Source: Callorhinchus milii
Lineage: Eukaryota
DNA length: 64,000 bases
Reading direction: 5' to 3'
Assembly (NCBI RefSeq): GCF_018977255.1
Contig: NW_024704742.1
Span: 138,572,001-138,636,000, forward strand
A model generated the notes under the pieces. That model did no database searches, was not told the origin of the DNA, and saw only the letters and a list, made by a program, of their open reading frames with translations. The stretch's first letter is position 1; each line of letters begins with the position of its first letter. The position numbers were made by a program, and so were the translations under genes. Shown here one piece after another: positions 6,621-57,400 of this stretch.

Positions 6621-9560
6621 CAACAACAAGATTACATTTGTATAGCACCTTTCACGTCGAGAGGATGTCCCAAGGCGCTGGACAGTGTACAGCATTTCAG
6701 ACCCGAGCTGGGGTCAAGGGGGGGGCGAGGGAGGGGAGGGGAAAGGGGGTGGCCGATGGCATGGTCGAAGAGGAGGGTCTTGAGGCGGGACTTGAAGGAG
6801 GTTAAGGAGGGGGAAAGGCGGAGTGACTGGGGGATGGAATTCCATAGGTTAGGGGCAGAGTGGCTGAAGGCTCTCCCACCAATGGTGGGGTGGGTGGGTT
6901 GGGGGACGTGGAGCAGGCCCAGGCTGGCTGAGCGGAGGGAGCGGGCGGGTTGGTAGGGGGTTAGGAGGTCGCAGAGGTGGGTGGGGTGAGGCTGTGGAGG
7001 GCTTTGTATGTGAGGACCAGGATCTTGAACTGGATCCTCTGAAGGATAGAGAGCCAATGGAGTTGGGCGAGAGTGGGGGAGATGGGGTCACGGAGTTTGG
7101 TGCTGGAGAGGATACAGGCTGCAGAGTTCTGGATTATCTGCAGTCTGTGGATGGAGGAGTTGGGAAGGCCGACACGCAGGGGGTTTGCATAGTCGAGCCT
7201 CGAGGTGATGAAGGCATAAACAAGAGTTTCAGTGGCCTGAGGGGTGAGGGAGTGGCGGAGACGAGCGATGTTATGGAAGTGAGAGAAGGCAGAGCGGGTC
7301 ATGGCTTGAATGTGGGGGAGAAAAGACAGTTGAGGGTCGAACATGACACCCGGGTTCCTGACTGGCGGTGAGTTGGTGAGTTGAAGTGTGCAACCATGGA
7401 GGGTGATGGTGCCAGAGCCTGAGGTGCTGAGGGCCAATCAGGAGGGCCTCAGTCTTGTTCACATTCAACTGTAGGAAGTTTGCCCTCATCCAGGACTTGA
7501 TGTCCGACAGACAGTCTGTCAGGACAGCAGTGGCCCTGGAGTTGAGAGTGGGGGCAGAGAGGTAGAGTTGGGTGTCATCCGCATACATGTGGAAGTTGAC
7601 CCCATGTCTGCAGACCCCCAATGCTCGGGTCCTGACCCAACTGTCCAGCGCTCTGGGACGTCCTCCCGATGTGAAAGGCGGTCTATAAATGGAATCTTGT
7701 TGTTGTTGTTGCAGATGATGTCACCGAGGGGGAGAATGTAGATATTAAAGAGGAGACAAGGACAGAGCCCTGGGGGCGCCAGATGTGACAGTGCGGGGGC
7801 TGGAGGAGAAACAAAGTGGAGACAGTGAGAGAGATAGGAATCAAAACAGGCAAGTGCAGGTCTGTGAAGATTAAATAAACGGAGAGGCGGTGTATGAGGA
7901 TGGAGTGGTCGACAGTGTCGAAGGCGGCAGAGAGGTCGAGGAGGACAAGGAGGCAGACGGAGCCCTAATCACAGATGTTCAAAATATCGTTAGTGACTGT
8001 GACCAGGGCTGTTTCCGTGCTGTGGGCAGCGCGGAAGCCGTATTGGAGGGGTTCAAAGAGGGAATGGCTAAAGAGAAAGGAGCGGAGCTGGGACACGATG
8101 ACTCATTCCAGGACCTTGGAGAGGAATGGGAGGTTAGAGATGGGCCGACAGCTGGAGAGGGGGGATGGGTCCAGGGAAGGTTTTTTCAGGATGGGGGTGA
8201 TGACGGCTGTTTTTAGGGGGGTGGGAACTGTACCGGTGGATAGGGAGAGGTTGATGACATCGGACAGGAGGGGGGCCAGAAGGTGGAGCTGGGAGATGAG
8301 GAGAGAGGTGCGGATGGGATTGAAGGAGCAGGTGATCGGTTTGAGTTTGTGGACAGTCGCGGTGAGGGAGGAGGGAGAAATAGGGTCGAAGGAGTATAGG
8401 GGTGATGGATGGGGGTTGGGTCGTGAGGGCGAGGTGATGTTGGGGTGGCTGTGGACAGAGCTGAGGTGGCTGAACGTATCCCCTCGATTTTGGATTCGAG
8501 GAAGTCCAGCATCTCCTCACAGTTGGAGTTTGAGGAGAGGATGGGCGAGGCGTGGGAAGGTGGACGGAGGAGACAGTTTGTGGTGTAAAAGAGAAGCCTG
8601 GGGTTGTCCTTTGCCTTCAGCGTAATCTTGGAGCAGAAGGAGGATTTGGCGGAGGCAAGAGCGCAGCAGTAGATCTTGGTGGTGAAGCCAAATCTGCCAA
8701 TGGACCATTAGTTTGGATTTGGTCGAGGCGCGTTCGACAGCTCGCACTTGCGCCTTGATGTAGCGGAGATGGCTGGTGTACCAGGGGAATTTACGGGAGC
8801 ATGAGGCAGTTCGGGAGGTGAGGGGGGCAACGGAGTCCAGAATGGAGGAGAGGGAGTTGTGGAGAAAGGAGAGTGAGGAGGGGAGATCGGTCATTGAGGA
8901 CCAGAGGTGTAGGAGTTCAGATGATTCCAGAGCAGTGGAGAGAGAGAGGGAGGAAATTTTTTTCCACAAACGGTACATGATGGTGGAGGGTTGGGAAAGG
9001 GGAAGGGAGGTGTTGAGGGAGATGGAGTGGTGGTCCGAGATGGCTTTATCGATGATGGTGATGTCCGAGACGGTGAGGCCCCTGGTGATTACCAGGTCAA
9101 GGGGGTGGCCACGGACATGGGTGGGGGAGTGGATGAGGAGGGAGAGGTTAAGGGAAGAGAGAAGGGAGGAGAAGTCGGCAGAGGTAGAGCAGGAGGAGGT
9201 GAAGCGGAGGTTGAAGTCGCCTAAGATAAGGAGGAGTTCAGAGCAGAGGGAGAGGGAAGACAGGAGGGTGGAGATGTCTGAGAGGAAGGTGGGGGAAGGC
9301 TTAGGGGGACGGTAGACAAGGAGGATTTTGAGGGAAAGCCTGGAGGGGTGGTAGAGGGTAAGGTGTTCACAGGAGGGGCAGGTTCTGGAGTATGGGGAAA
9401 GGCTGAGGGGGGACCAGGAGATGAGAGCCACACCATCGCCGCGGTGTAACCTGGAGGTGTGGCCTGGGGTGGGTCAGGTTTCGGTGAGGGCGAGGATGTC
9501 GATGTTTTCCTCGACAGTGAGGTCGAGGATAGTGAGGGACCTGTTGGTCAGTGAGACACA
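6621..9560 (-). mobile_element. Near full-length ORF2 L2 LINE, disrupted
   Basis: APE endonuclease (VYRPPK, LGDFN, HxRGHPLDLV, SDH at 8517-9431), [12 protein letters not shown] (about 7560-7600), C-terminal ITSRLDY...LHWL...IQFKIL, and a 3' tail. A small + L2 tail is inserted at about 7615-7710. Confidence 0.93.
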
Positions 9561-21386: not shown

Positions 21387-21411
21387 NNNNNNNNNNNNNN
21401 NNNNNNNNNNN
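21387..21411. other. Assembly gap (25 N)
   Basis: N run between two tandem repeats. Confidence 1.
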
Positions 21412-33195: not shown

Positions 33196-33585
33196 CTGTA
33201 ACAATCAGACGTGTTTTGGGGCCAGTTTCAAACTTTCCGTCCTCACCCTGGAGCTCCACACGACAGGACAACAGCGTATTATTGTCCTCTCCCCTCAGTT
33301 GGTTTATCTCTATTGCAGCGTCGTTCCTCCTCGGGTCCCCAATCACTCGGTGTCTCTCTCCCTCGTTTACATCAATGACATTTTGATACTTTCCCTGTGA
33401 ATCCGGCCTATAATTTGTATATTTAATATACACAGGACCAGTCCAGTCTCCCATCCATATGATGGTGATGTTCCCTGTGTATCTGGGGTGAGGGGGAGTG
33501 AACTTGCAGTACACGGTGACCGGTGACCCTAACCTGCCGGTCACTGTATCGGGGGTCTCCATCGTCCAGCCATTCCCACTGAGCC
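33196..33585 (-). CDS. Siglec-15-like receptor, Ig V-set exon
   Basis: Acceptor tcctcacag|GG and donor ACAG|GTGAGG, 390 nt, phase 1-1. Protein WTMETPDTVTGRLGSPVTVYCKFTPP...IW...GDPRRNDAAIEINQL...SCRVELQG...TRLIVT. The CRVE motif carries the Siglec F-strand Arg. Confidence 0.88.
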
Positions 33586-34964: not shown

Positions 34965-35830
34965 TAGGCTTTATAAATAGGGGCATAGAGTACAAGAGTC
35001 AGGAGGTTATGATTAACCCATATAAACACTGGTTAGACCTCAGTTAGAATACTGCATCAAGTTCTGGGCCCCACACTATAGGAAGGACGTTAAGGCATTG
35101 GAAAGGGTACAGAGGAGAAGGTTACGAGGACCTAATAGAGGTCTTCAAAATCATGAGGGGATTTGATGGGTTAGAAAGGGAAAAGCTGTTCCCACTGGTG
35201 GGAGTGTCGGTGACTCGAGGTCACAGATTCAAAATAGACTCTTAAAGAAGCCGAGGGGAAGTGAGTAGAAATTTTTTCACGCAGAGAGTTGTTCGAATCT
35301 GGAACATTGCCTGAAAGGGCGGTGGAGGCCGATTCGATAACTACTTTTAAAAACGCGGTGGACGGGTATTTGAGGAGGACGGGTTTGCAGATTACAGGGA
35401 AAGGGCCGGGGAGTGGGACTGACATTACATTGCTCTGTTCAAAGAGCCGCACAGACTCAATGGGCCGAATGGCCTCTTTTTGTGCTGTACGATTCTATGG
35501 AGTCCTGTAGCTCAGTGGTTAGAGCACTCGCTTTGCAAGCGAGAGACCTGAGTTCAATTCCAGGCAGGGCGAAACCTTGGGCAAGTTTCCTTACTCCACA
35601 CGCCTAATAATAATCCCTCCAAAACCAAAAACAATAATAAATTGGTCATTTTCAATTTACAACTGTTTGTGGGACATTGCTGTGCGCAATTGGCTGCCGC
35701 GTTCGCCCACAAATATACAGTCAATTCACTTTACAGTGTGTTCTGTGAAGCGCTTTGGGACGTCCTCCCGACGTGAAAAGCGCTATATCAAATGCAAGGA
35801 TTATTATTATTATGATTCTATGATTCTACG
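34965..35830 (+). mobile_element. CR1 3' fragment with SINE (35499-35813) inserted in its tail
   Basis: Closely similar to the CR1 copies at 46400-47010 and 63424-64000. Confidence 0.9.
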
Positions 35831-38799: not shown

Positions 38800-41700
38800 A
38801 CAGCGGACGGCAACTCAGAGCGCTTCATAGCAACGGATCCCGGGGCCGAGCCAGGGGGAGGGGGAAAACTTCGAAAAGAAAGGTCTTCAGCCGAGACCTG
38901 AGAATAGGAAGAGAGGAGACGAGGGGAGGGGAGTGAGGAAGGAATTCCAGAGCCTCGGGGCACAGTGGCTGAAGGCACGACCGCCAAGAGTAGAATGGAG
39001 GACTCGGGGAACGAGGTGGAGGCCAGACCCAGGGGAGCGAAGAAAACGGACACTGTTGGGGTCGGGGGGGGGGGCAGAGGAGTGGAGGGATTTGAAGACG
39101 AGGTGAGGATCTTGAAGTGGAGATCTTGGATGACCTGGATTTTATGGATGGTCGTAGAGGGGAGGCCGGTGAGGAGGGCTTTAGAGTAGTTCAGCCGAGA
39201 GGTGACAAAGGCCTGGACCAGGGATTCAGCGGCTTTTGGAGTGAGGTATTGGTGGAGTCGGGCGATGGGTCGGAGGTGGTAGAAAGCGGTGCTGGTGAGG
39301 GACTGGATGTGGGGGAGGAAGGATAATTGGGGGTCGAACCTGATCCCTGGGGTTGCGTACGTGTTCGGAGAGTTTTAGGGGGAGGTCGGGTCGGTGGAGG
39401 AGGTGAGAACCGTGAGATTTTAGACGTTGACGAGAGCCAAAGAGTATGGCTTCCGTCTTGTCAACGTTCAGCTGAAGGAAGTTTGCGCTCATCCAACCCC
39501 TGAGATCTGACAGGAGAACATCAGGGGACTGGGGGGCGCAAAGAGAGGTGGACAAATAGAGTTGGGTGTCGTCCGCGTACATGTGGAAGTGTACCCCATG
39601 TCTGAGATGACATCCCGAAGAGGGAGCATATAGATCAGAAAGAGGTGACCGGATGAGAGCGGGAGAGGAGAAGCCGTTGGTGCAGATGTACAGTGGCGGT
39701 TTGTGAGGTAGGACTCGAACCGGGCGAGTGAGGTCCCACTGAGGTGGATGACGGAGGAAAGGCGGGGGAGGAGGATGGTTTGATCGACTGTGTCGAACGC
39801 GGTAGAGAGGTCCAGGAGGACAAGGAGGCAGAGGGAGCCCTGGTCATAGATAGAGAGGATGGTGTTTGAGACTTTCACAAGCGCAGTCCCTGTACTGTGG
39901 GCGGAAACCGGACTGGAGGAGTTCGAAGAGGGAGTGGGAGGAGAGGTGTCCGCGGAGTTGATTGGCAACAACGCGTTCTAGGACTTTGGTAAGGAAGGGC
40001 AGGTTAGAAATAGGGCGGTAGTGGCTGGGGTTTGAGGGATCGAACGAGGGTTTTTTGAGGAGGGGGGTGATGACAGCAGGTTTGAGGGGGACAGGGACTG
40101 ATCCGGAGATGACATCAGCCAGTAGTGGGCAGAGGAGGGGGAGCTGTGTGACCAGGGGGAGGGGGTCGAGGCAACAGGTGGTGGGTTTCATAGAGGTGAT
40201 GGTAAGTGAGAGGGAGGAGGGAGAGATGGGGAGGAGGGAATGTAGAATGGGGGTGTTGGTATGAGCAGATGATGGGGAGGGTGAGGGGGATGGAGAGGGG
40301 GTGGTGGTGTGTGACAAGAGGCAGGAGGATGAGGCTGTCTGGTAGATGTGTATTTTGGATGAAAAGAAGTTCATGACCTCCATGCACTTAGCATTTAATG
40401 TGAAGATTGAGGGGCCTGAGGGGGGACACAGAGGAGGTAGTGGGTGGTGGAAAAAAGAGCTTTGGGGTTGTGTTTAGCCTCCAAGATGATGTTGGAGTAG
40501 AAGCCATTTTTGCTCGTGTCAAAGAACGGCGGTCGCTGTGGAGATGCTCGAGCCACAGTTGGTGAACTGTCAGGACAGTTTTCTGCCATCTGCACTCGAG
40601 CAGCCGGGTTTGGGTTTTTAGGGAGTGGAGATGGTTGTTGTACCGGGGGATCGGGTGGGTTTGGAGATGGACCTGGATTTCAGGGGGACGAAGGAGTTGA
40701 AGGTGGAGGAGAGGCGATCATGGAGCAGCTGGACGGCAGCTTCAGGATCTCTGCGGGAGGAAGGCCAGAGGGATAGGATATTTGAGGATGTGAGGACCTT
40801 TGTGAGAGTCTCAGGGGGTAGAGGATGGTTGAGAGCTTGGTGGAGGAGAGAGGGATGTGAGAGGAGAAGGAGATGAGGAAGTGGTCCGAGATGACGTTGT
40901 CCAAAATGCTAAGATCAGGACTGTCAAGGCCGTGGGAGATGACGAGGTCGAGGGCATGGCCACGGTTGTGGGTGGGTGAGTTAATGTGAAGGGTGAGGTT
41001 TAGGGAAGAGAGGAGGGCAGTAAAGTCAGAAGTGGTGCAAGGGGAGTTTAGGTGGAGGTTGAAATCGCCCATTATGAGGAGGGGTTTGGAGCAGAGGGAC
41101 AGGGAAGAGAAGAGAGTAGCGATGTCTGTGTGGAAGGAGCCGGAGGACTTAAGGGACAGTAGACCAGGAGGATTTTCAGTGGGAGAGAGGGATGGAAGAG
41201 GGTGAGGTGCTCGAAGGAGGGGGTAAGCAGCCAGAGGAGTAGGGGATGAGACCAAGGGAGGCTTAGGAGATGAGGGCCACCCCGCCGCCATGTTGGTTTG
41301 GACTGGGGGGGTCTGGTGGAAGGTGTAGCCTGGAGGGGAGGCTTCCACTCGCGGGACGGGGTCATTGGGGGAAAGTCAGGTTTCTGTGAGCCCAAGAATT
41401 TCAAGGATGAGGTCATGGATGGTGAGGGCTTTGTTAGAGAGGGAATGGACCTTTTGGAGGGAAATGCAGGTGGGTTTGCTGAAGGGGGGGAGGGAGGAGA
41501 GAGTGATGCGGAGAGGATTTTGGGGGTGTACAGGAGATGTTTGTGGAGAGTGGGGGGAGTGGAGAGTTGGGGAGGGTACGTATGAGAGAGGGGGGAGTTG
41601 GGTTTGCCTTAAGGAGGCGGTTTGAGCGGAGGGAGTGAGTGATGGGACACGTGGGGTGGCTGCTCTGGGACAGCCGGTGCCGGGAGCCACGATGGGCCCA

Positions 41701-44049: not shown

Positions 44050-44815
44050 ATGTCCGCAACATTGCCAGACTCCGCCACTCAGCCCTCACCCACGCATTTG
44101 TCGCATCAAGGCTCGATTACGGGAACTTCCTGCTCATCGGCCTTCCCAACTCTTCCCTCCACAAGCTGCAGATCATCCCAAACTCTGCAGCTCGTGTACT
44201 CTCACGCACCAGGCTCCGTGACCCCATCACCCCCACCCTCGCCCGACCCCATCACCCCCACCCTCGCCCGACCCCATCACCCCCACCCTCGCACGATCCC
44301 ATCACCCCCACCCTCGCCCAACTCCACTGGGTTCCCATCCCCCAGAGGATCGAGTTCAAGATCCTTGTCCTCAACCCTAAGGCCATCCATGTCCTCGCCC
44401 CCTCATACCTCTCTGACCTGCTGACTCCCTACCAACCTGCCCGCTCCCTCCGTTCAGTGGGCTCCGGCTGCTCCATGTCTCCCGCCCGACCCGCCCTCCC
44501 ATCGGTGTCCGGNNNNNNNNNNNNNNNNNNNNNNNNNGCTTTCAGCCTCTCTGCCCCCACACTCTGGAACTCCATCCCACAGCCCCTTCGCCTCACTTCC
44601 TCCCTCGCCTCCTTCAAGGCCGGTCACAAGACCCTTCTCTTCGACTGTGCCTTTGGTCTCACTCCCACCTCTCTGCCTTCCCTCACCCCTACCCCACCCC
44701 TGCCCCATGTTCGGGTCCCGACACCTGACTCTCTTGGGACAGTGCCTTGGGACGTCCTCCCGACATGAAAGGCGCTCTATCAATGTCATTTTGTTGTTGT
44801 TGCTGTTGTTGTTGT
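44050..44815 (+). mobile_element. L2 3' fragment spanning the 25-N gap
   Basis: L2 C-terminal motifs and (TTG)n tail. Confidence 0.85.
44513..44537. other. Assembly gap (25 N)
   Basis: N run inside an L2 fragment. Confidence 1.
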
Positions 44816-45439: not shown

Positions 45440-47050
45440 TGACACATACGGAAACCCTTAATACCCTGGCAAGTCAAGGGATACGGGGAGAAGGCAGGAA
45501 ATTGGAATTGAAAGGCTTAGTTGAGGTACAGATCAGCCATGATCTAATTAAACGGCGGAACATTGGACACAGGAGTGGTGCCCGAGGACTGGAGAGTGGC
45601 CAATGTTACTCCTCTGTACAAAAAGGGACAGAAGGACAAACCTGGGAACTCCAGGCCAGTCAGCCTGACATCAGTAGTGGGGAAACTCCTGGAGACTATA
45701 ATCCGGGACAGAATAAATCTTCACTTAGAAGAATATGGGTTAATTAGGGACAGCCAACACGGATTTGTTAAAGGCAAATCTTGTCTAACAAATCTAATAG
45801 AATTTTTCGATGAGGTAACGGAGAGGGGATAAAGGGAGTGCAGTTGATGTAGTTTATATGGACTTTCAAAAGGCATTTGACAAAGTGCCACATGAAAGAC
45901 TTGTAAGAAAGATAGAAGCCCATGGTATAAAAGGGACAGTGGCAGCGGATCCAGAACTCACTGGGAGACAGAAAGCAGAGAGTTGTGGTGAACGGCTGCT
46001 TTTCTGACTGGAGGGAAGTGTACAGTGGTGTCCCCCAGGGATCGGTATTAGGACCACTGCTCTTCTTAATATACATAAATGATCTGGACTTGGGTATAGC
46101 AAGTACCATTTCCAAGTTTGCGACGACACAAAGTTAGGGAGGGGGTAAACAGTGAGAAGGATAGGAGCCGACTGCAGGAAGACATAGACAGATGGTAAAA
46201 TGGGCGACACATGGCAGATGAGTTTCAATGTGGAGAAATGCGGGTAATGCATTTTGGTAGAAAGAATGAGGGGCAATATAGGCGGTAATACAATCTTAAG
46301 GGGGTGAAGAACAGAGAGACCTGGGGGGCAGGTAAATGAATCCTTGAAGGTGGCAGGACAGGGAGATAAGCTGTAAAAAGGGCATATGGGATACTGGGCT
46401 TTATAAATAGGGGCATAGAGTACAAGAGTCAGGAGGTTATGATTAACCCATATAAACACTGGTTAGGCCTCAGTTAGAATACTGCCTCAGTTCTGGGACC
46501 ACACTATAGGAATGATGTTAAGGCATTGGAAAGGGTACAGAGGAGATTTACGAGGATGGACCAGGAATGAGGGACCGTGATGATGAGGAAAGGCTGGAGA
46601 GGCCGGGATTATTCTCATTGGAGCAGAGAAGGTTACGAGGACCTAATAGAGGTCTTCAAAATCATGAGGTGGTTTGATAGGTTTGAAAGGGAAAAGAGTT
46701 TACACTGGTGGGCGTGTCGGTGTCACGAGGACTCAAATATTAAAATAGTCTCTAAAAGAAGCAGAGGGGAGGGAGAAGAAATTTTTCACGCAGCGAGTTG
46801 TTGAATCTGGAACATTCTGAAAGGGCGGTCAGGCCGATTCGATAACTACTTTTAAAAACGCGGTGGAAGGGTATTTGAGGAGGACGGGTTTGCAGGTTAT
46901 GGGGAAAGGTCTGGGGAGTGGGACTGACATTACATTGCTCTATTCACAGAGCCGCACAGACTCGATGGGCCGAATGGCCTCCATTTGTGCTGTACGATTC
47001 TATGATTCTATGAACAGGCTCGAAGGGCTGAATGGCCTCCTCCTCTTCCT
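45440..47050 (+). mobile_element. CR1 LINE RT-to-tail fragment
   Basis: VPEDWRVANVTPLYKKG...RPVSLTSVVGKLLE...[31 protein letters not shown]. Confidence 0.95.
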
Positions 47051-48199: not shown

Positions 48200-49300
48200 T
48201 CAGCGCCTCCTCACCTCAGGCCCTGACAGCATCACCATCCCTGGGGCTCACTCCCCCTCACTGCGCCAGTCCCGAACCTTGGGGTCTGGTTTGACCCTCA
48301 ACTATCCTTTCTACCCCACATCTGCCCCATGACCCGCTCTGCCTCCCCCACCCCCGCAACATGGCCCGACTCCCCCACTGTCTCACACCGCAGCCCCCGA
48401 GACCCTCACACACCCCTCCATTACAGCCAGACTCCACTATGCAAACTCCCTCCTTGTCGGCCCCCAACCCCTCCCTCCACAGACTGCAGATCATCCCGAA
48501 CTAACTCTGCAGCCCGTGTCCTCTCCCCCACCCCATCACCCCCATCCTCACCCCCACCAGGCTCCCGACCCCATCACCCCCATCCTCACCCCCACCAGGC
48601 TCCCCACCCCATCACCCCCATCCTCACCCCCACCAGGCTCCCCGACCCCATCACCCCCATCCTCACCCCCACCCAGGCTCCCCACCCCATCACCCCCATC
48701 CTCACCCCCACCAGGCTCCCCGACCCCATCACCCCCATCCTCACCCCCACCAGGCTCCCCGACCCCATCACCCCCATCCTCACCCCCACCAGGCTCCCCG
48801 ACCCCATCACCCCCATCCTCACCCCCACCAGGCTCCCCGACCCCATCACCCCCATCCTCACCCCCACCAGGCTCCCCGACCCCATCACCCCCACCCTCAC
48901 CCCCACCAGGCTCCCCGACCCCATCACCCCCATCCTCACCCCCACCAGGCTCCCCGACCCCATCACCCCCATCCTCACCCCCACCAGGCTCCCCGACCCC
49001 ATCACCCCCATCCTCACCCCCACCAGGCTCCCCGACCCCATCACCCCCATCCTCACCCCCACCAGGCTCCCCGACCCCATCAACCCCACCGTCGCCCGGC
49101 TCCATTGGTCCCCATCCCTCAGGGATAGAATTCAAAATTCACGTCCTCACTTTCAAGCCCACCAGGCTCCCTCTGCTCAGCCTTCGGCTGCCCTCCTACC
49201 CACCCCTGCACTCCCTCACCCCAATCCTGCCCCCTCCCCCCAACACACTTTACAAAAGGCACTTTACAAAAGTAATGTTGTTGTTGTTGTTGTTGTTATC
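48200..49300 (+). mobile_element. Decayed L2 3' fragment with internal 39-bp minisatellite (about 48530-49090)
   Basis: Unit ACCCCCACCAGGCTCCCCGACCCCATCACCCCCATCCTC, about 14 copies, at the L2 PITP-L position. Confidence 0.85.
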
Positions 49301-49539: not shown

Positions 49540-50155
49540 ATAATAATCCTTGCATTTGATATAGCACTTTTCATGTCTTCGCGACGTCTCAAAGCGCTTC
49601 ACAGAATATACTGTAAAGTGAATTGACTGTATATTTGTGGGCAAAATACGGCAGCCAATTGCGCACAGCAGCGTCCCCACAAACAGTCGTGGATTAAAGT
49701 CACCAATTTTATTACTGTTGTTTTTTTCTTGAGAGATTATTATCAGGCGTGTGGAGTAACGAAACTTGCCCAAGGTCTCGTCCTGCCGGGAATCGAACCC
49801 AGGTCTCTCGCTTGCAAGGCGAGTGCTCTAACCACAGAGCTACACTGTGGAGTCCTGTAGCTCAGTGGTTAGAGCACTCGCTTTGCAAGTGAGAGACCTG
49901 AGTTCAATTCCAGGCAGAGGGCGAAACCTCAGGCAAGTTTCCTTACTCCACACAGAGCCTAATAAATCCTCCAAAAAACAATAATAAATTGGTCATTTCA
50001 ATCTACGACTGTTTTGGGACATTGCTGTGCGCAATTGGCTGCCGCGTTGGCCCACAAATATACAGTCAATTCACTTACAGTATATTCTGTGAAGCGCTTG
50101 GGACCCTCCGACGTGAAAAGCGCTATATCAAATGCAAGGATTATTATTATTATTA
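49540..50155. mobile_element. Head-to-head pair of short-subfamily SINEs (49540-49844 -, 49848-50155 +)
   Basis: Junction ...CAGAGCTACA CTG TGGAGTCCTGTAGCTC... Confidence 0.9.
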
Positions 50156-50164
50156 CAGGACTGC

Positions 50165-51365
50165 ACAGAGAGAGATAGACGGGGGAGAGGGGGAATTGAC
50201 CGAGGGAGAGAGTGGGGGGGAATGACAGAGAGAGAGAGAGAGAGAGAGAGAGGGAATGACAGAGGGAGAGAGAGAGGGAATGACAGAGGGAGAGAGAGAG
50301 AGAGAGGGAATGACAGAGGGAGAGAGAGAGGGAATGACAGAGGGAGGGAGAGAGAGAGAGGGAATGACAAGAGGGAGGGAGAGAGAGGGGGAATGACAGA
50401 GGGGAGAGAGAGGGAATGACAGAGGGAGAGAGAGAGGGAATGACAGAGGGAGAGAGAGAGGGAATGACAGAGGGAGAGAGAGGGAATGACAGAGGGAGAG
50501 AGAGAGAGGGGGTGACAGAGGGAGAGAGAGAGAGAGGGAATGACAGAGGGAGAGAGAGAGAGGGAGTGACAGAGGGAGAGAGAGAGGGAATGACAGAGGG
50601 AGAGAGAGGAAATGACAGAGGGAGAGAGAGAGAGAGGGAATGACAGAGGGAGAGAGAGAGAGAGGGAATGACAGAGGGAGAGAGAGAGAGGGAGTGACAG
50701 AGGGAGAGAGAGAGGAAATGACAGAGGGAGAGAGAGAGGGAATGACAGAGAGAGAGAGAGAGAGAGGGAATGACAGAGAGAGAGAGAGGAAATGACAGAG
50801 GGAGAGAGAGAGGGAATGACAGAGGGAGAGAGAGAGAGAGGGAATGACAGAGGGAGAGAGAGAGAGAGGAGTGACAGAGGGAGAGAGAGAGAGGGAATGA
50901 CAGAGGGAGAGAGAGAGAGAGGGAATGACAGAGGGAGAGAGAGAAAGAGGGAGTGACAGAGGGAGAGAGAGGGAATGACAGAGGGAGAGAGAGAGAGAGG
51001 GAATGACAGAGGGAGAGAGAGAGAGGGAGTGAGAGAGGAGAGAGAGAGAGAGGGAATGACAGAGGGAGAGAGAGAGGGAATGACAGAGGGAGAGAGAGAA
51101 AGAGGAGTGACAGAGGGAGAGAGAGAAAGAGGGAGTGACAGAGGGAGAGAGAGGGAATGACAGAGGGAGAGAGGGAATGACAGAGGGAGAGAGAGAGGGA
51201 GTGACAGAGAGAGAGAGAGAGGGAATGACAGAGAGAGAGAGAGAGAGGGAGTGAGAGAGGGAATGACAGAGGGAGAGAGGGAATGACAGAGAGAGAGAGA
51301 AGAGGGAGTGAGAGAGGGAATGACAGAGGGAGAGAGGGAATGACAGAGAGAGAAAGAGAGAGGGA
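50165..51365. repeat. GA-rich satellite (GAGAGGGAATGACAGAGG variants) in AMPK intron 1
   Basis: Direct inspection. Confidence 0.95.
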
Positions 51366-51668
51366 ATGGCGGTTGTTGTTGTCTCGGGTTCCCGGCCTCT
51401 CCCCCGGGCCCTGACCCCCCCCGGGGCCTGACCCCCCGGTGGCCCCGGGCCCTGACCCCCCGGGCACTGACCCCCCCCCCGGCCCTGACCCCCCCGGGCC
51501 TGACCCCCCCGGGGCCTGACCCCCCGGTGGCCCTGACCCCCCCCCGGGCCTGACCCCCCGGTGGCCCTGACCCCCCGGGCCCTGACCCCCGGCCTGACCC
51601 CCCGGGCACTGACCCCCTCCCCCCCGGGCCCTGACCCCCCCCCGGGGGGCCGCGGCGGCCTCTCCTAC

Positions 51669-51765
51669 CCTTCACTTTGCCGAAGGTGCCGACCCCCAGG
51701 GTGTCCCCGAGTTGGTAATGGCCGATCTTGACGCGGCCGCTGTCCGCCTTCTGCTTCTCCGCCAT
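51669..51765 (-). CDS. PRKAA: AMP-activated protein kinase catalytic alpha subunit, coding exon 1 (PRKAA1/PRKAA2 family, paralogue unresolved)
   Basis: Translates as MAEKQKADSGRVKIGHYQLGDTLGVGTFGKVK plus one base, then donor G|GTAGGA. This matches the vertebrate AMPK-alpha N-terminus (EKQKHDGRVKIGHYxLGDTLGVGTFGKVK), including the GxGxFG loop and a phase-1 intron after VK. Start context is AAGATGGCG, within a CpG island. Confidence 0.93.
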
Positions 51766-51866
51766 CTTCTTCCGGCAGCGGCGGCCGCGCGGGTCACGTG
51801 ATCAGTCCACGCCCTCCCACGTGACTTTCTCGGAACACCCCACCCACTGGTCATCTAATGCCGCCT

Positions 51867-52075
51867 CACGTGACCTTTTCACCGCCCCCTCACGTGATCC
51901 CGTCACCTGTCAATCCGTCCCCCACGTGACCGCCCCCCTCACGTGATCCCGTCACCTGTCAATCCGTCCCCCACGTGACCGCCCCCCTCACGTGATCCCG
52001 TCACCTGTCAATCCGTCCCCCACGTGACCGCCCCCCTCACGTGATCCCGTCACCTGTCAATCAGTCCCCCACGTG
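51867..52075. repeat. 49-bp promoter tandem repeat (about 4 units), each with two CACGTG and one CTGTCAATC
   Basis: Unit CACGTGACCGCCCCCCTCACGTGATCCCGTCACCTGTCAATCCGTCCCC starts at 51923, 51972 and 52021, with partial units flanking. Confidence 0.9.
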
Positions 52076-53949
52076 CCCCCCCCCCTCTCTCACACCTGTC
52101 CAGGTGTGCACTCACACTCAGGTGTGCACTCACACTCTCTCTCACACGCTGTGCTGTGTGTGCAGCGAGTGCCGCTCCTCCAGAGCCACGTCCCACGTTA
52201 GAGATCCATCAATTAATTTGAATTGACTTCAGATTGATACACACCAATATCATAGGAGCAGGAGGCCATTCAGCCCCTCCAGCCTGTTCCGCCGTTCTGT
52301 AAGCCCATGGCTCACCTGTACCTCAACTCTAATTACCCGCCTTGGCCTCTGATCCCCTGATCCCCTGACCTGACAATGATACTCTTTTACCTTACAGAAA
52401 TATACAGCACCTTGTCATTGTCATTGTCTTCTAAACACACAGGATTCATTGCAAAGTGTAGTGACTGGGTTTTGTGCAGCCAATTTGTGCGCAGCACCAT
52501 TCCCGTCAACAGCCATGAAGGGAATGCAAGTACAAAATGGCGTGCGTATAGCTCCTTGCACATCGGGGGGGACGTCCCAAGGCGCTGGGATCCAGTCTGT
52601 GCCGAACAGGTTAACACCTCATCAATTAGACGGCACCTCCAAAAATACAGTGGTCCCTCCAGCACTGCGCTGGAGTGTCAGAGTGTGAGCCAGGCTGGCA
52701 ATAATAATAAAATATATAACTATTATTATTACTGAAGACACTAGACAACCGTCAGAATATAATGATGGTCTGGCCTATCTAAATGCCCTCGGGAGCTCTT
52801 TCCTCACACCTTTCTTTCCCTCCTCAGCTATGTTATTACAGTATATTGTTAATATAGCTTATGAATGCAAAATTAAAATGCAAGGATTATTATTATAAAT
52901 GCAAGTTGTTGTTATTTTGCGCAGTGCGCTGATTTTGTAGGAGCAACTGATTAAACTCAGGCTGATCAACACTAAACCGGGGGAAATTGCCCTTCAGACT
53001 CCACACATAGATGAAGATAGTAATAATAATAATCCTTGCATTTGATCATTTGATATAGCGCCTTATCACAGCTTTGAGACGTCTCAAAGCACTTCACAGA
53101 ATATCACTAAAGTAACTGTATACATTTGGGTGAAAGGCAGCATCGAATTGCGCACAGTAGCGTTCCACAAACATGCGTGGATTGAAGTGGCCAATTTATT
53201 ATTTTTTTGAACAAATTATTACCCCTGGAAAAGCAATCCACCAATCAACTGATAAGCAGGTTCCTACTGACTACTGGATTATTTTAATCCCTAAAAATAC
53301 TAAATTGGTCACTCAATCCACAACTGTTTGTGGGACACTGCTCTGCGCAATTGGCTGCCACGATTCGCCCACAAAATATACAGTCAATTCACTTTACAGT
53401 ATATTCTGTGAAGCGCTTTGAGAATTTCTCTGCATTATTTTTGGATGGTGAATTTGGATGAGGAAGGGATATTAATCAGGACAATGGGGAGAACCTGCTC
53501 ATTTTCCTCTGAAATAGTAGCAGAAATGGCACAAAATGAGTTTTAATCCTAAAAAAAAATCACCTAAAAATAATCAGTAAATGATGATTTGAAATTAAAT
53601 AATGAATAAGACAAACATTAAAGCTAGTTCCTTATAAAGTCTAAAAAACACTTATTTGGAAAAGTATTACATTTGTTATGTAGACAAACTCTTAAAAAAA
53701 CATTAAAGAATCAGTCTGGAAGGGAAGGAAAAGTAGAAATGATACCAGACAAAAAAATTGATAAAACTGTGTTCCTACTGACTGCTGGTAACCAGAGGTG
53801 TGGGGAGTAAGGAAACTTGCCCAACGTCTCGCCCCCGGCCCGGGAATCAAACCCAGGTCCTCGCGCTTGCGAGGCGAGGGCTCTATACCCTGAGCTACAG
53901 GACTCCACTGATGTTGAAATAAGATCAGACCCAGTCTCTTCCCTGAATA

Positions 53950-54420: not shown

Positions 54421-57400
54421 CGTACCGTGTATGTCGACCTCAACATAAACTTCAGCACACTTATGTTGACGTGGTTCAAGTTGCTAACAGCGTTCTGTGC
54501 ATTGTATTATGTCGAGTTATGATAACAGGCCCTTATCCTCAGGTGTGAACAAGGGATTCTTCAAAATCTGAAGCACAAACTACCGAAAACCTTCATCTTA
54601 TAAAAAGATGGCAGCTTTGAGGCCAAGGAAGAGATTACAGAAAACCTACTGGGGGCGAAGCACTATTTTAAACAGCCTGGATTTTGGTAACAACCTGCAG
54701 CTCAGGGGTTAGAGCCCTCGCCTATCAAGCGAGAGGACCTGGGTTCGATTCCCGGGCAGGGGGCAAAACATTGGGCAAGTTTCCTTACTCCACACGCCTC
54801 TGTTTACCAGCAGTCAGTAGGAACCCGGTTGTTAGTCGATTAGCGGATCATTTTTCCAAGATAATAATCCCTTTAAAAAAAATGTCGTCACTCAATCCAC
54901 GGCTGTTTGTGGGACGCTGCTGTGCACAATTGGCTACTGTGTTTGGCCTACAAAATATACAGTCAATTCACTTGAAGCACTTTGAGATGTCTCGAAGACG
55001 TGATAAAGCGCTATATCAAATGCCAGCATTATTATTGTTATAATAAGTATTTGGGCAAGTTACAAGCGCTAATCCGAAATTAGCAAAGGTTGTGTATGAA
55101 ACAGTGTACTGTGAAATAGTACAGCATTTTAAGTAAAAATCATCATGATATCCCCCAAAGTGCTTCTAATTACATTTCATATGAAATACACGGAAGTAAT
55201 TATTTTTAATTACAGTATGTTATTTGAAATACATATAAATAAATGTTTCAGCAATTTATAATTACAAAGCATCTGTCTCTGTTGTTCGTCTGTTTATGTC
55301 AACCCCCTTACGCTGATAAAATTCCAACAGTCGCTGACCTGTGCGCATAACAGCAGCAAATTACATTTGTATACAGCCTTTTACGTTGGGAGGACGTCCC
55401 AAGGAGCTGGAGTTGGGCAAGTTTCCTTTCTCCACACGCCTCTGTTTACCAGCAGTAAATAGGAATCCAGTTGTTAGTCGATTGGCGGATCACTTTTCCG
55501 GGGGTAGTAATCCCTTCAAAAAAAATATTATCCGATATTACATTGCAAAATATATTACATTTCATACAGCACCTTTCAGATCCCAAAGCACTTCGCGGGA
55601 TTTACTATAAAGTGCAGCAATTTTACACACAGTGATGTCCCACAAACAGCCATGAAGTGAGCGAGAGATTTGTTGGCCAGGACACAGAGAGAGAAACTCC
55701 CTTCTCCTCCAGGCATCGCTATTGTCCAGGGACCCAGCGCTTCACAATGTTATCAGGAGATCAGTCTGCCTCATGGAAAATCTCTGCTGCTTTCTATTCC
55801 CTCCTCAGCCCAGTTCAAATGAATTAGCCGCTTGCAAGACGCAGGCTCAGCAGCACAGACACGATGGGCCAAATGGCCTCCCCTAGGCCAAGATTTCTAT
55901 GTTTCTTCTTGTTGTCTGTACTTCGGGGTCATGGTGGACACCAACTTGAGCCTGGACACTGTCCTGAAGGACTGCGCTGAGAAGGGGCCAAGGGCACTTT
56001 GGTCATGCTCTTCATCCCTCCACCTTGCCCCCTCCCTCCTCACTTTCACATCCCACCTAAAGGCCTTCCATTTTGATCTGCTTACGGTCATCTCCCCCCC
56101 CCCACCCCCCACCCTCCCTCTCCACCTATATCAGGGTCAGACTCCACCACTGTCAAGCGCTCCGGGACTCTACCCCACGTGTAAATGCAAGTTGTTGTTG
56201 TCTTTCCATGATCCACTTTTCTCGTTTTGCTGGTATAGATCTCAAACTGGGTGAGAAAGTCATCATATTCTTTCGTCAACTTAAACGTTTCCAAAGTTTG
56301 TGGGCTATGGTTGTCATACAGCTGAGGTAAGCCTCAGCGTCGAAATGCCAAAGCCAGGGCTGGGTGGATGTGTCTGCAGCGATTAAGGTTAAAATGTTTT
56401 CCTGAGATGAAGCCATTGGTTAGTTAGCCAGCAGCCAATATCTCTGAACGAGAGATTTATTAAATTTAAACTTTAAACTTAGACCTCCAGTGACCTCATC
56501 TACATCCAATACATTAACACTTAATGTATCCCGTTACCCCCGCAGCCAAAGCCCTAACTAACGGGGAGGGTGGTCCTCGCTGGTCAAGCAGCGGGAAAGC
56601 TGCCAGACAGTGATCTCAATGGCCGAGCTGTGGGTTTAGTTGGTTACACTCCAGCAGTTACCCCAACACACACTCTGGGCCCCCCCAGGCCTTGGCTCTC
56701 ACCAACCTGCGCCTAATACTCGCCGGAATTAGGTAAACAGGATGTGTCCCTACAGGGAGAGAGAGAGAGAGAGAGCGCATTCCATTCCAACAATCTCTCT
56801 GGGATTTCCCGGTGTAGGTGGGAGGCGGGGAATTCTCATCTTGGTTTAGAGATTCTGAAGCAACAGTGATGGGTTTTCGCATGTGTCAGCCACGCGGCTG
56901 ACCCCCTCCCACCCACCCACCACCCCCAAAAAGAGGAGTCTTTTGTGACCAGCTATTGTGTTGTTTGGTACTGCTGACCTCAGAGTAAAAAAAGACCATA
57001 TTATTGCCTTCAAAAAAACTCGTTCTGCTGCTGACTGCAGAAGTGACTGTAATGCCAACGTTGGCTATCAGCCCAACTCTGTCTGACTGACCAGTGATGC
57101 TGGGTTTGCACTGTTGGCAGTTTCCTCTGAAGATTACCGCTCGCAATTTTACAGGTTCAAGTAACTTGAGAGCGATCTGCAATAATAACAAAATAAAGGC
57201 CTTGCAGTTGATGTGGAGCCCTGTAGCTCAGTGGTTCGAGCCCTCGCCTCGCAAGCGAGAGGATCTGGGTTCGATTCCCTGCAGGGTGAAATGGTGGGCA
57301 AGTTACCTTACTCCACACGCCTCTGTTTGCCTAGCAGTAAGTAGGAACCCAGTCGTTAGTCGATTGGTGGATCGCTTCCCGGGGTAATAATCCCTTCAAA

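What the first reader, a model, noticed from the sequence alone, without database searches (positions are those of the whole stretch)
51790..52075. AMPK-alpha promoter built from a tandemly amplified E-box/CLEAR + PBX-TALE module
Seen: about 11 CACGTG hexamers within about 310 bp upstream of the ATG, most in TCACGTGA or CACGTGAC context. They arise from a 49-bp unit carrying two E-boxes, a GC box and CTGTCAATC, with an exact CTGTCAATCA (TGATTGACAG) at 52054-52063. Established: GTCACGTGAC is the CLEAR/USF element bound by TFEB/TFE3/MITF and USF, CACGTG is also bound by CLOCK-BMAL1 and MYC, TGATTGACAG is the PBX-PREP/MEIS decamer, and AMPK activates TFEB/TFE3. Inference: a promoter VNTR could tune AMPK expression and form a TFEB-AMPK positive feedback or circadian input.
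Basis: partly seen in the sequence, partly recalled or inferred. Interest (0 to 1): 0.72.

Follow-up and report, generated by a model that had tools for sequence, protein, structure and literature searches.

The report
Amplified E-box module upstream of PRKAA1
In a cartilaginous fish, a short regulatory block in front of the energy-sensor gene AMPK alpha-1, present once in two related species, has been copied four times head to tail; this is a familiar kind of promoter repeat, and its effect on the gene is untested.

Summary
Eleven CACGTG lie 30-305 bp upstream of a minus-strand ATG (51765); eight are in a four-unit array (51881-52075; 48+49+49+49 bp). The gene is AMPK alpha-1 (PRKAA1): an RNA-type contig splices exon 1 to a ray-alpha-1-like exon 2. 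A run of the same species holds the unit-to-unit junction, so two or more units are real; the unit number could not be read.

New here: two other species carry one 33-bp block (GC box, E-box, TALE site; 30 of 33 bases alike) with no repeat. In one it lies on the exon-1 contig at a similar distance while the DNA between does not align. The module is therefore ancestral and probably constrained, and the fourfold copy is lineage-specific.

Against a tuned dial: the window holds 15 minisatellites, only 1 of 4 units keeps the exact TALE decamer, and no exact GTCACGTGAC exists. The flanks fit USF, MiT/TFE, SREBP or DEC about equally well. Most likely this is a class-B E-box CpG-island promoter whose module was recently amplified by slippage, working like the USF-site repeat of human TYMS. 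TFEB feedback and copy-number variation remain untested.

The parts
51669..51765 (-). Coding part of exon 1 of AMPK alpha-1 (PRKAA1): 32 codons plus 1 base, GT donor at 51668-51667
   Evidence: Translation; best PDB sequence hits are AMPK alpha chains, E 2.5e-10; RNA-type contig leaves the window at 51669 and continues like ray alpha-1 exon 2 (read by eye against P0024)
51766..51806 (-). Minimal 5' untranslated region; contains E-box 1
   Evidence: Contig of run X13 (RNA by the tool's guess) covers 51806-51669 with 0 differences; a contig end is only a lower bound for the start site
51793..51802 (.). E-box 1 (gtCACGTGat), unique DNA, one mismatch from the CLEAR 10-mer
51816..51825 (.). E-box 2 (ccCACGTGac), unique DNA, 17-bp gap from E-box 1
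51865..51874 (.). E-box 3 (ctCACGTGac), unique DNA, one mismatch from the CLEAR 10-mer
51881..52075 (.). Four-unit minisatellite (48+49+49+49 bp); each unit: GC-box core, TCACGTGA, TALE site, second CACGTG. Units 2 and 3 identical; unit 1 one C shorter; unit 4 differs by one base
   Evidence: unit junction present in run X1 as a 79-base contig with 0 differences
51883..51915 (.). 33-bp block (GC box, E-box, TALE site) found once, without repetition, in organisms B and C
   Evidence: 33 bases with 3 differences in X11 (same contig as exon 1, 124 letters away against 113 here) and in X14 (separate contig); positions of the 3 differences not listed
52054..52063 (-). Exact PBX-PREP decamer TGATTGACAG, only in unit 4
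   Evidence: consensus as in PMC5240567
51640..52080 (.). CpG island (67% G+C, CpG observed/expected 1.02 against 0.48 for the window); no TATA; nearest CCAAT at 52244
51400..51645 (.). Degenerate C-rich repeat of about 16 bp at the start of intron 1, the other flank of the island
   Evidence: (families D2, D4)

Best explanation
This is the TATA-less CpG-island promoter of PRKAA1. Its ancestral form already held several class-B E-boxes plus one GC box / TCACGTGA / PBX-PREP block (shown: one copy in two other species). In this lineage a roughly 49-bp, C-rich segment running from that GC box to the next E-box was duplicated and amplified to four near-identical units (shown), by the slippage or unequal exchange that makes many minisatellites in this region (inferred). 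The E-boxes are most likely read by broadly expressed bHLH-ZIP dimers that accept a 5' T flank, USF1/2 first and MiT/TFE factors as competitors, keeping the island open and a housekeeping kinase gene on (inferred from motif flanks). The six added E-boxes probably raise or buffer occupancy somewhat, but the amplification is most likely tolerated drift rather than a selected dial (inferred).
For: Module present once in organisms B and C, 30 of 33 bases alike, while the 113 bp between it and the exon do not align at the 80% setting; organism C shows two further CACGTG just upstream of position 51769. Five E-boxes remain after collapsing the array, beyond all 20,000 shuffles. Units 98-100% alike, hence recent or homogenised. 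15 minisatellites cover 7.6% of the window, about a 3-6% chance per 300 bp; 12 of 15 have GC skew of 0.5 or more in size, as this one does. The added units carry a mismatch in the decamer. 10 of 11 sites have a 5' T or 3' A flank, which MITF needs (PMC7427332); a 5' GT flank favours USF over MYC-MAX (PMC8431614). Base rate: about 6% of tested human genic VNTRs affect expression, twice as often within 100 bp of the start site (PMC8024321).
Against: No binding, chromatin or reporter data. The three differences in the conserved block are not located, so intact motifs in B and C are not proven. A 3-6% local chance is not large, and an array landing exactly on the conserved block could reflect retention by selection. 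In the added units the second E-box has a better flank than in unit 4. Paired MITF sites give more than additive ChIP peaks (PMC7427332), so extra units could matter. The first decamer base may be tolerant: the natural Sp2 site has C there (bioRxiv 10.64898/2026.02.16.706105).
Confidence: 0.6

Rival explanations
1. One reading: the array is a CLEAR-type cluster bound by TFEB/TFE3; AMPK activates these factors, which raise PRKAA1 transcription, and unit number sets the gain of this positive loop.
For: Six TCACGTGA sites, the 8-bp CLEAR box of PMC7427332; paired sites bind more than additively; AMPK activates TFEB, also in zebrafish (PMC6902666); module conserved in B and C.
Against: No exact GTCACGTGAC; the best matches lie outside the array. 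Searches listed no paper whose title or abstract opening names PRKAA1 as a TFEB/TFE3 target. Teleost-type alpha-1 locus L001 has no CACGTG in 585 bp upstream. Variation in unit number not shown.
Confidence: 0.15
2. Circadian input: CLOCK:BMAL1 activates, and DEC1/2 repress, through the E-box cluster.
For: Canonical CACGTG; E-boxes 1 and 2 are 17 bp apart, the secondary optimum for CLOCK:BMAL1 pairs; the 26-bp gap is about one further turn (inference). DEC preference for TCACGTGA is recalled.
Against: No 6-7 bp pair; the array creates 11-bp gaps, and a 10-bp spacer reduced activity in PMC3043000; that paper's main text does not mention Prkaa1 or AMPK; one search gave nothing on BMAL1 at the Prkaa1 promoter (PMC7415324 passages checked).
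Confidence: 0.08
3. SREBP feedback: the module E-box (ATCACGTGA on one strand) is an SREBP site, so lipogenic SREBP induces its own inhibitor AMPK, a negative loop.
For: SREBP binds symmetric TCACGTGA (PMC8431614); five sites read TCACGTGAT; SREBP works with Sp1 GC boxes and is inhibited by AMPK (recalled).
Against: No CCAAT within 165 bp of the array, though NF-Y often partners SREBP (recalled); no expression data; motif shared with other factors.
Confidence: 0.07
4. The extra units are inert, or act only structurally (more unmethylated CpG, G-quadruplex on the G-rich strand); transcription depends on the ancestral five sites.
For: Mean G4Hunter score 1.24 in size and three long-loop G-run motifs; five CpG per added unit; most human genic VNTRs show no expression effect.
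Against: No canonical short-loop quadruplex motif; the added E-boxes are intact and lie within about 270 bp of the transcript's known 5' extent.
Confidence: 0.07
5. Assembly artefact: the unit number in the window is inflated.
For: Depth of the repeat loop over the flank in X1 is 1.8, nearer three units (2.0) than four (3.0); two scaffold gaps and a missing remainder of the gene show local assembly trouble.
Against: All 49 loop words are present in X1, impossible with one unit; units 1 and 4 each have a private difference; depth near 6 is too low to tell 2, 3 or 4 units apart.
Confidence: 0.05

Closest known systems
TYMS enhancer region (TSER) 28-bp VNTR with USF1 E-boxes (PMC7712088, passages read)
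   Same: Short tandem repeat next to the start codon of a housekeeping metabolic gene; units carry E-boxes; unit-internal variants add or remove a site.
   Different: TSER is shown polymorphic (2-9 units) and bound by USF1 at CACTTG; here the units are 49 bp, carry two canonical CACGTG plus GC box and TALE site, and neither polymorphism nor binding is shown.
Human promoter-proximal eVNTRs (PMC8024321, passages read)
   Same: Minisatellite within a few hundred bases of a start site, carrying factor motifs.
   Different: Defined by length-expression association in populations, not testable here.
CLEAR-network promoters bound by TFEB/TFE3/MITF (PMC6614182, PMC7427332, passages read)
   Same: Several TCACGTGA sites close to the start of a gene in nutrient signalling.
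   Different: No exact GTCACGTGAC; much of the multiplicity comes from a recent tandem repeat; no occupancy or induction data.
PBX-PREP DECA and DECA-CCAAT promoters (PMC5240567; bioRxiv 10.64898/2026.02.16.706105, passages read)
   Same: One exact TGATTGACAG in a CpG-island promoter, apparently ancestral.
   Different: No CCAAT at the 10-12 bp spacing; the neighbour is an E-box 8 bp away; three of four copies have a first-base mismatch.
CLOCK:BMAL1 E1-E2 tandem elements (PMC3043000, passages read)
   Same: Paired canonical E-boxes; one pair at 17 bp.
   Different: No 6-7 bp pair; array gaps are 11 and 26 bp.

Membership tests
PRKAA1 (AMPK alpha-1) gene | Exon 1 encodes the AMPK-alpha N-terminus and glycine-rich loop, phase-1 donor | tested here: met
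   donor at 51668-51667 used by the X13 contig
PRKAA1 (AMPK alpha-1) gene | Alpha-1 rather than alpha-2 residues | tested here: met
   Extra residue and KA before the RVKIGHY motif shared with ray and skate alpha-1; the ten residues after the splice match P0024 10 of 10 and chimaera alpha-2 P0104 6 of 10 (one search read by eye); P0024 and P0054 group with tetrapod alpha-1, support 100/100; a second, more diverged locus with a 3-base gap in B and C is the likely alpha-2
PRKAA1 (AMPK alpha-1) gene | Remaining exons downstream in the genome | tested here: inconclusive
   No exon after exon 1 in the 51.6 kb downstream; gaps at 44513 and 21387; spliced contig exists
Promoter minisatellite VNTR (TSER type) | Head-to-tail units of 10-100 bp at high identity next to the start site | tested here: met
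Promoter minisatellite VNTR (TSER type) | Unit number varies between individuals | tested here: inconclusive
   One of four well-holding same-species runs laid; contigs collapse the array; depth ratio 1.8 against 3.0 expected, at depth near 6
Promoter minisatellite VNTR (TSER type) | Expression follows unit or site number | not testable with these tools
   needs genotypes with RNA, or reporters
CLEAR-network promoter | GTCACGTGAC 10-mer near the start site | tested here: not met
   0 exact matches in the window; two sites at one mismatch
CLEAR-network promoter | 8-bp TCACGTGA core near the start site | tested here: met
   6 of 11 sites
CLEAR-network promoter | TFEB/TFE3 occupancy and induction | not testable with these tools
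   no ChIP or expression data
PBX-PREP DECA-CCAAT composite | Exact decamer | tested here: met
   1 of 4 units
PBX-PREP DECA-CCAAT composite | CCAAT 10-12 bp from the decamer | tested here: not met
   nearest CCAAT at 52244, none on the other strand
CLOCK:BMAL1 E1-E2 element | Two E-boxes 6-7 bp apart | tested here: not met
   gaps between canonical sites 17, 43, 18, 26, 11, 26, 11, 26, 11, 26; non-canonical E2 partners were not searched

The most novel reading that the evidence does not exclude
Cartilaginous-fish PRKAA1 is a direct MiT/TFE target through a conserved E-box plus PBX-PREP block, closing a transcriptional AMPK-TFEB positive loop for which my searches found no report, and this lineage carries a length-variable array that sets the loop's gain. 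The ATG-proximal TCACGTG kept in a separate clade of AMPK-alpha loci (L049 group) would then mark an old or repeatedly evolved link.
Probability: 0.12. Interest if true: 0.68.

Novelty: new member of a known kind. Interest (0 to 1): 0.4.

Why it matters
AMPK is studied mostly as a kinase switched by phosphorylation; a search for the phrase 'PRKAA1 promoter' found 5 papers, and the one examined mentions neither E-box nor USF. A compact element kept across species, with natural one-unit and multi-unit versions, is a ready-made test of whether bHLH-ZIP factors that AMPK itself controls (TFEB/TFE3, SREBP) feed back on AMPK transcription. If the array is only tolerated drift, it is one more promoter minisatellite in a repeat-prone genome and of modest interest.

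Tried and rejected
No whole genome is held for this window, so no genome-wide null for promoter minisatellites or for the E-box plus TALE pairing could be computed; the null used is this 64-kb window only. No holder on record as RNA was listed; X13 is RNA by the tool's guess only. The uncovered stretch 52000-52080 in X1 proves nothing. X1 and X13 contigs at 52100-52145 match simple repeats and were ignored.

Alpha-2 identity, suggested by the top PDB hits, was rejected. An upstream in-frame start like the tetrapod alpha-1 extension was rejected: a stop lies 13 codons upstream with no ATG between. A structured RNA was not supported: Rfam gave only 14 tRNA-like hits elsewhere in the window. A transposon or dispersed origin of the unit was not supported within the window: no other match over 11 bases.

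Pan-animal conservation was not supported: of 80 AMPK-alpha-like loci from metagenome contigs, 8 have CACGTG within 400 bp upstream (8 of 49 with at least 300 bp of upstream DNA, 0 of 31 with less), and a short-word blastn of the module against all 80 gave no match over 14 bases. No mammalian or bird promoter DNA was obtained. Reading E-boxes from translated upstream frames of homologous ORFs was uninformative.

Paper searches (0 papers; 5 listed, none on topic by title) and 50 led nowhere; look-ups in earlier findings were empty. No supplementary files were opened; TFEB or BMAL1 target tables in supplements, and subscription papers outside the library, may list PRKAA1.

Full report
Observation. 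The window holds 19 CACGTG, 11 of them between 51795 and 52075, 30-305 bp upstream of a minus-strand ATG at 51765. Eight lie in a tandem array best phased as 51881-52075, four units of 48, 49, 49 and 49 bp; units 2 and 3 are identical, unit 1 lacks one C and unit 4 differs by one base. Each unit has a CCGCCC core, TCACGTGA, CTGTCAATC and a second CACGTG. The single base that sets unit 4 apart is the one that completes the exact decamer at 52054-52063, so only 1 of 4 units has it. Three E-boxes lie in unique DNA. The CLEAR 10-mer GTCACGTGAC does not occur; the two sites one mismatch away are outside the array. The cluster is not only a product of the repeat: flank plus one unit has 5 CACGTG in 163 bp, and 0 of 20,000 dinucleotide shuffles reached 4. 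The region is a CpG island without TATA or a nearby CCAAT.

The gene. Exon 1 matches AMPK alpha chains. It is alpha-1. It shares an extra residue and the KA pair with ray and skate alpha-1, and these group with tetrapod alpha-1 at 100/100 in a 16-protein tree. An 822-base contig of run X13 (RNA by the tool's guess) matches 51806-51669 exactly, then continues with letters that, read by eye, give the ten residues following exon 1 in ray alpha-1 P0024 (10 of 10; 6 of 10 for chimaera alpha-2 P0104). E-box 1 is therefore inside the transcript, and the array lies about 75-270 bp upstream of the known 5' extent. No later exon is in the 51.6 kb downstream. Two 25-base gaps interrupt that stretch, and a Siglec-15-like exon lies beyond the first on the same strand, so a very long intron or a misjoin are both open. 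The promoter itself lies in gap-free sequence. The organism is a cartilaginous fish by these homologies; earlier unchecked notes on the same genome call it a chimaera.

Is the repeat real? I laid 4 of the 24 listed runs. X1 (same species label as the best holders) has a 193-base contig identical to 51704-51896 and a 79-base contig identical to one full turn of the unit. That loop needs all 49 31-base words, which one unit cannot supply, so at least two units exist in that run. Loop depth over flank depth is 1.8 (10.9 against 6.1); 2, 3 and 4 units predict 1.0, 2.0 and 3.0. At this depth the count cannot be read, so polymorphism is neither shown nor excluded. The tool warns that the best holder may be the window's own source; a depth near 6 makes that unlikely (inference).

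Relatives. In organism B (X11) one 358-base contig carries exon 1 (4 differences in 91) and, 124 letters further against 113 here, the block 51883-51915 with 3 differences in 33; the DNA between does not align at the 80% setting. Organism C (X14) has the same block with 3 differences on a separate contig, and two more CACGTG within 30 bases of position 51769. In both, the base after the block is the one that completes the decamer, as in unit 4, and no second unit follows. The tool does not list where the three differences fall, so intact cores are likely, not proven. The module and a multi-E-box promoter are thus ancestral and probably constrained; the amplification is confined to organism A among the three, and the added units carry the derived decamer base. 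Further out the feature is patchy: 8 of 49 AMPK-alpha-like metagenome loci with at least 300 bp upstream have CACGTG there, all in one related group, and a teleost-type alpha-1 locus has none in 585 bp.

Background. The window has 15 arrays with period 15 or more, at least 2.5 copies and at least 85% match, covering 7.6% of it; 7 are complex and at least 93% alike. That gives a 3-6% chance of an array starting in any given 300 bp. Twelve of 15 are strongly G/C-skewed like this one. Earlier unchecked notes report other motif-bearing minisatellites beside CpG islands in this genome; they are leads, not support. If the density held genome-wide, hundreds of promoters would carry such arrays (inference; this window may be unusually dense).

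Which factor? Ten of 11 sites have a 5' T or 3' A. Passages of PMC7427332 give TCACGTGA as the MITF consensus and report more than additive peaks at paired sites. Passages of PMC8431614 say a 5' GT favours USF over MYC-MAX and that SREBP binds TCACGTGA too. PMC6614182 gives the CLEAR 10-mer. PMC3043000 gives CLOCK:BMAL1 spacers of 6-7 bp, secondarily 16-17, with reduced activity at 10; here the array makes gaps of 11 and 26 and only the unique pair has 17. PMC5240567 gives the decamer; the DECA-CCAAT preprint places PBX1 on the 5' half-site, where a natural site has C at the first base, so the mismatch in units 1-3 may be partly tolerated. AMPK activation of TFEB, including in zebrafish, is in PMC6902666. 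Sequence alone cannot choose among these factors; MYC is the least favoured. All papers were seen as search listings or keyword passages, none in full, and no supplements were opened.

Mechanism, shown and inferred. Shown: gene identity, splice use, array anatomy, junction in a sequencing run, a single conserved block in two other species, local abundance of minisatellites. Inferred: slippage origin, recent age, binding by USF or MiT/TFE dimers, a modest or nil effect of the extra units. The closest precedent is the TYMS enhancer repeat, where unit number and a unit-internal variant set the number of USF1 sites (PMC7712088). About 6% of tested human genic VNTRs affect expression, twice as often near the start site (PMC8024321). 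The element works like a TSER-type promoter repeat, but it cannot be filed as a VNTR or a CLEAR promoter: length variation is untested and the 10-mer is absent.

Literature on this promoter. Searches listed no paper whose title or abstract opening reports E-box, USF, TFEB or BMAL1 control of PRKAA1 or PRKAA2; the PRKAA1 promoter paper examined (PMC12284296) has no occurrence of E-box or USF, and PMC7415324 concerns AMPK acting on BMAL1, not the reverse. The library lacks most subscription papers.

Verdict. A real, recent, lineage-specific amplification of a conserved promoter block at PRKAA1; a new member of a known kind. The conservation of the single block is the most useful result; the feedback-dial reading remains possible at roughly 12-15%. 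Interest 0.4.

Noticed in passing
window 33196-33585, minus strand: An intact Ig V-set exon most like Siglec-15 (E 1.1e-12 to PDB 7zoz), with AG and GT at its ends, lies on the same strand as PRKAA1, 18 kb downstream of exon 1 and beyond the gap at 44513: either a same-strand nested gene or a sign of a scaffold misjoin. Its other exons were not sought.
   Followed up: partly
window 21387-21411 and 44513-44537: Two 25-base N gaps; no PRKAA1 exon after exon 1 anywhere in the 51.6 kb downstream.
   Followed up: partly
L049, L050, L059, L061, L067, L068, L069, L056, upstream of the match: A related group of AMPK-alpha-like loci (taxon not determined) keeps a TCACGTG about 20-25 bp before the ATG and a second CACGTG 310-365 bp upstream of the match, even between members whose upstream DNA is only 62-69% alike; in L049/L050 the proximal site shares 14 bases with E-box 1 of the window.
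   Followed up: partly
window 5958-62046: Fifteen minisatellites, several apparently grown from short pieces inside retroelement-like sequence, for example 44220-44319 and 48523-49088.
   Followed up: partly
whole window, for example 57217-57289, 35501-35572, 49784-49844: Fourteen tRNA-like Rfam hits, most likely heads of a tRNA-derived SINE family, as they sit in repeated flanking sequence.
   Followed up: no
window 50170-51365 and 51400-51645: Intron 1 opens with a degenerate C-rich repeat and a 1.2-kb GA-rich repeat containing about 40 copies of the TALE-type hexamer TGACAG; probably incidental.
   Followed up: no
window 45560-47000: A long decayed LINE (CR1-like by recall) on the plus strand inside intron 1; reverse-transcriptase and endonuclease fragments also at 39226-39843 and 8517-9473.
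   Followed up: no
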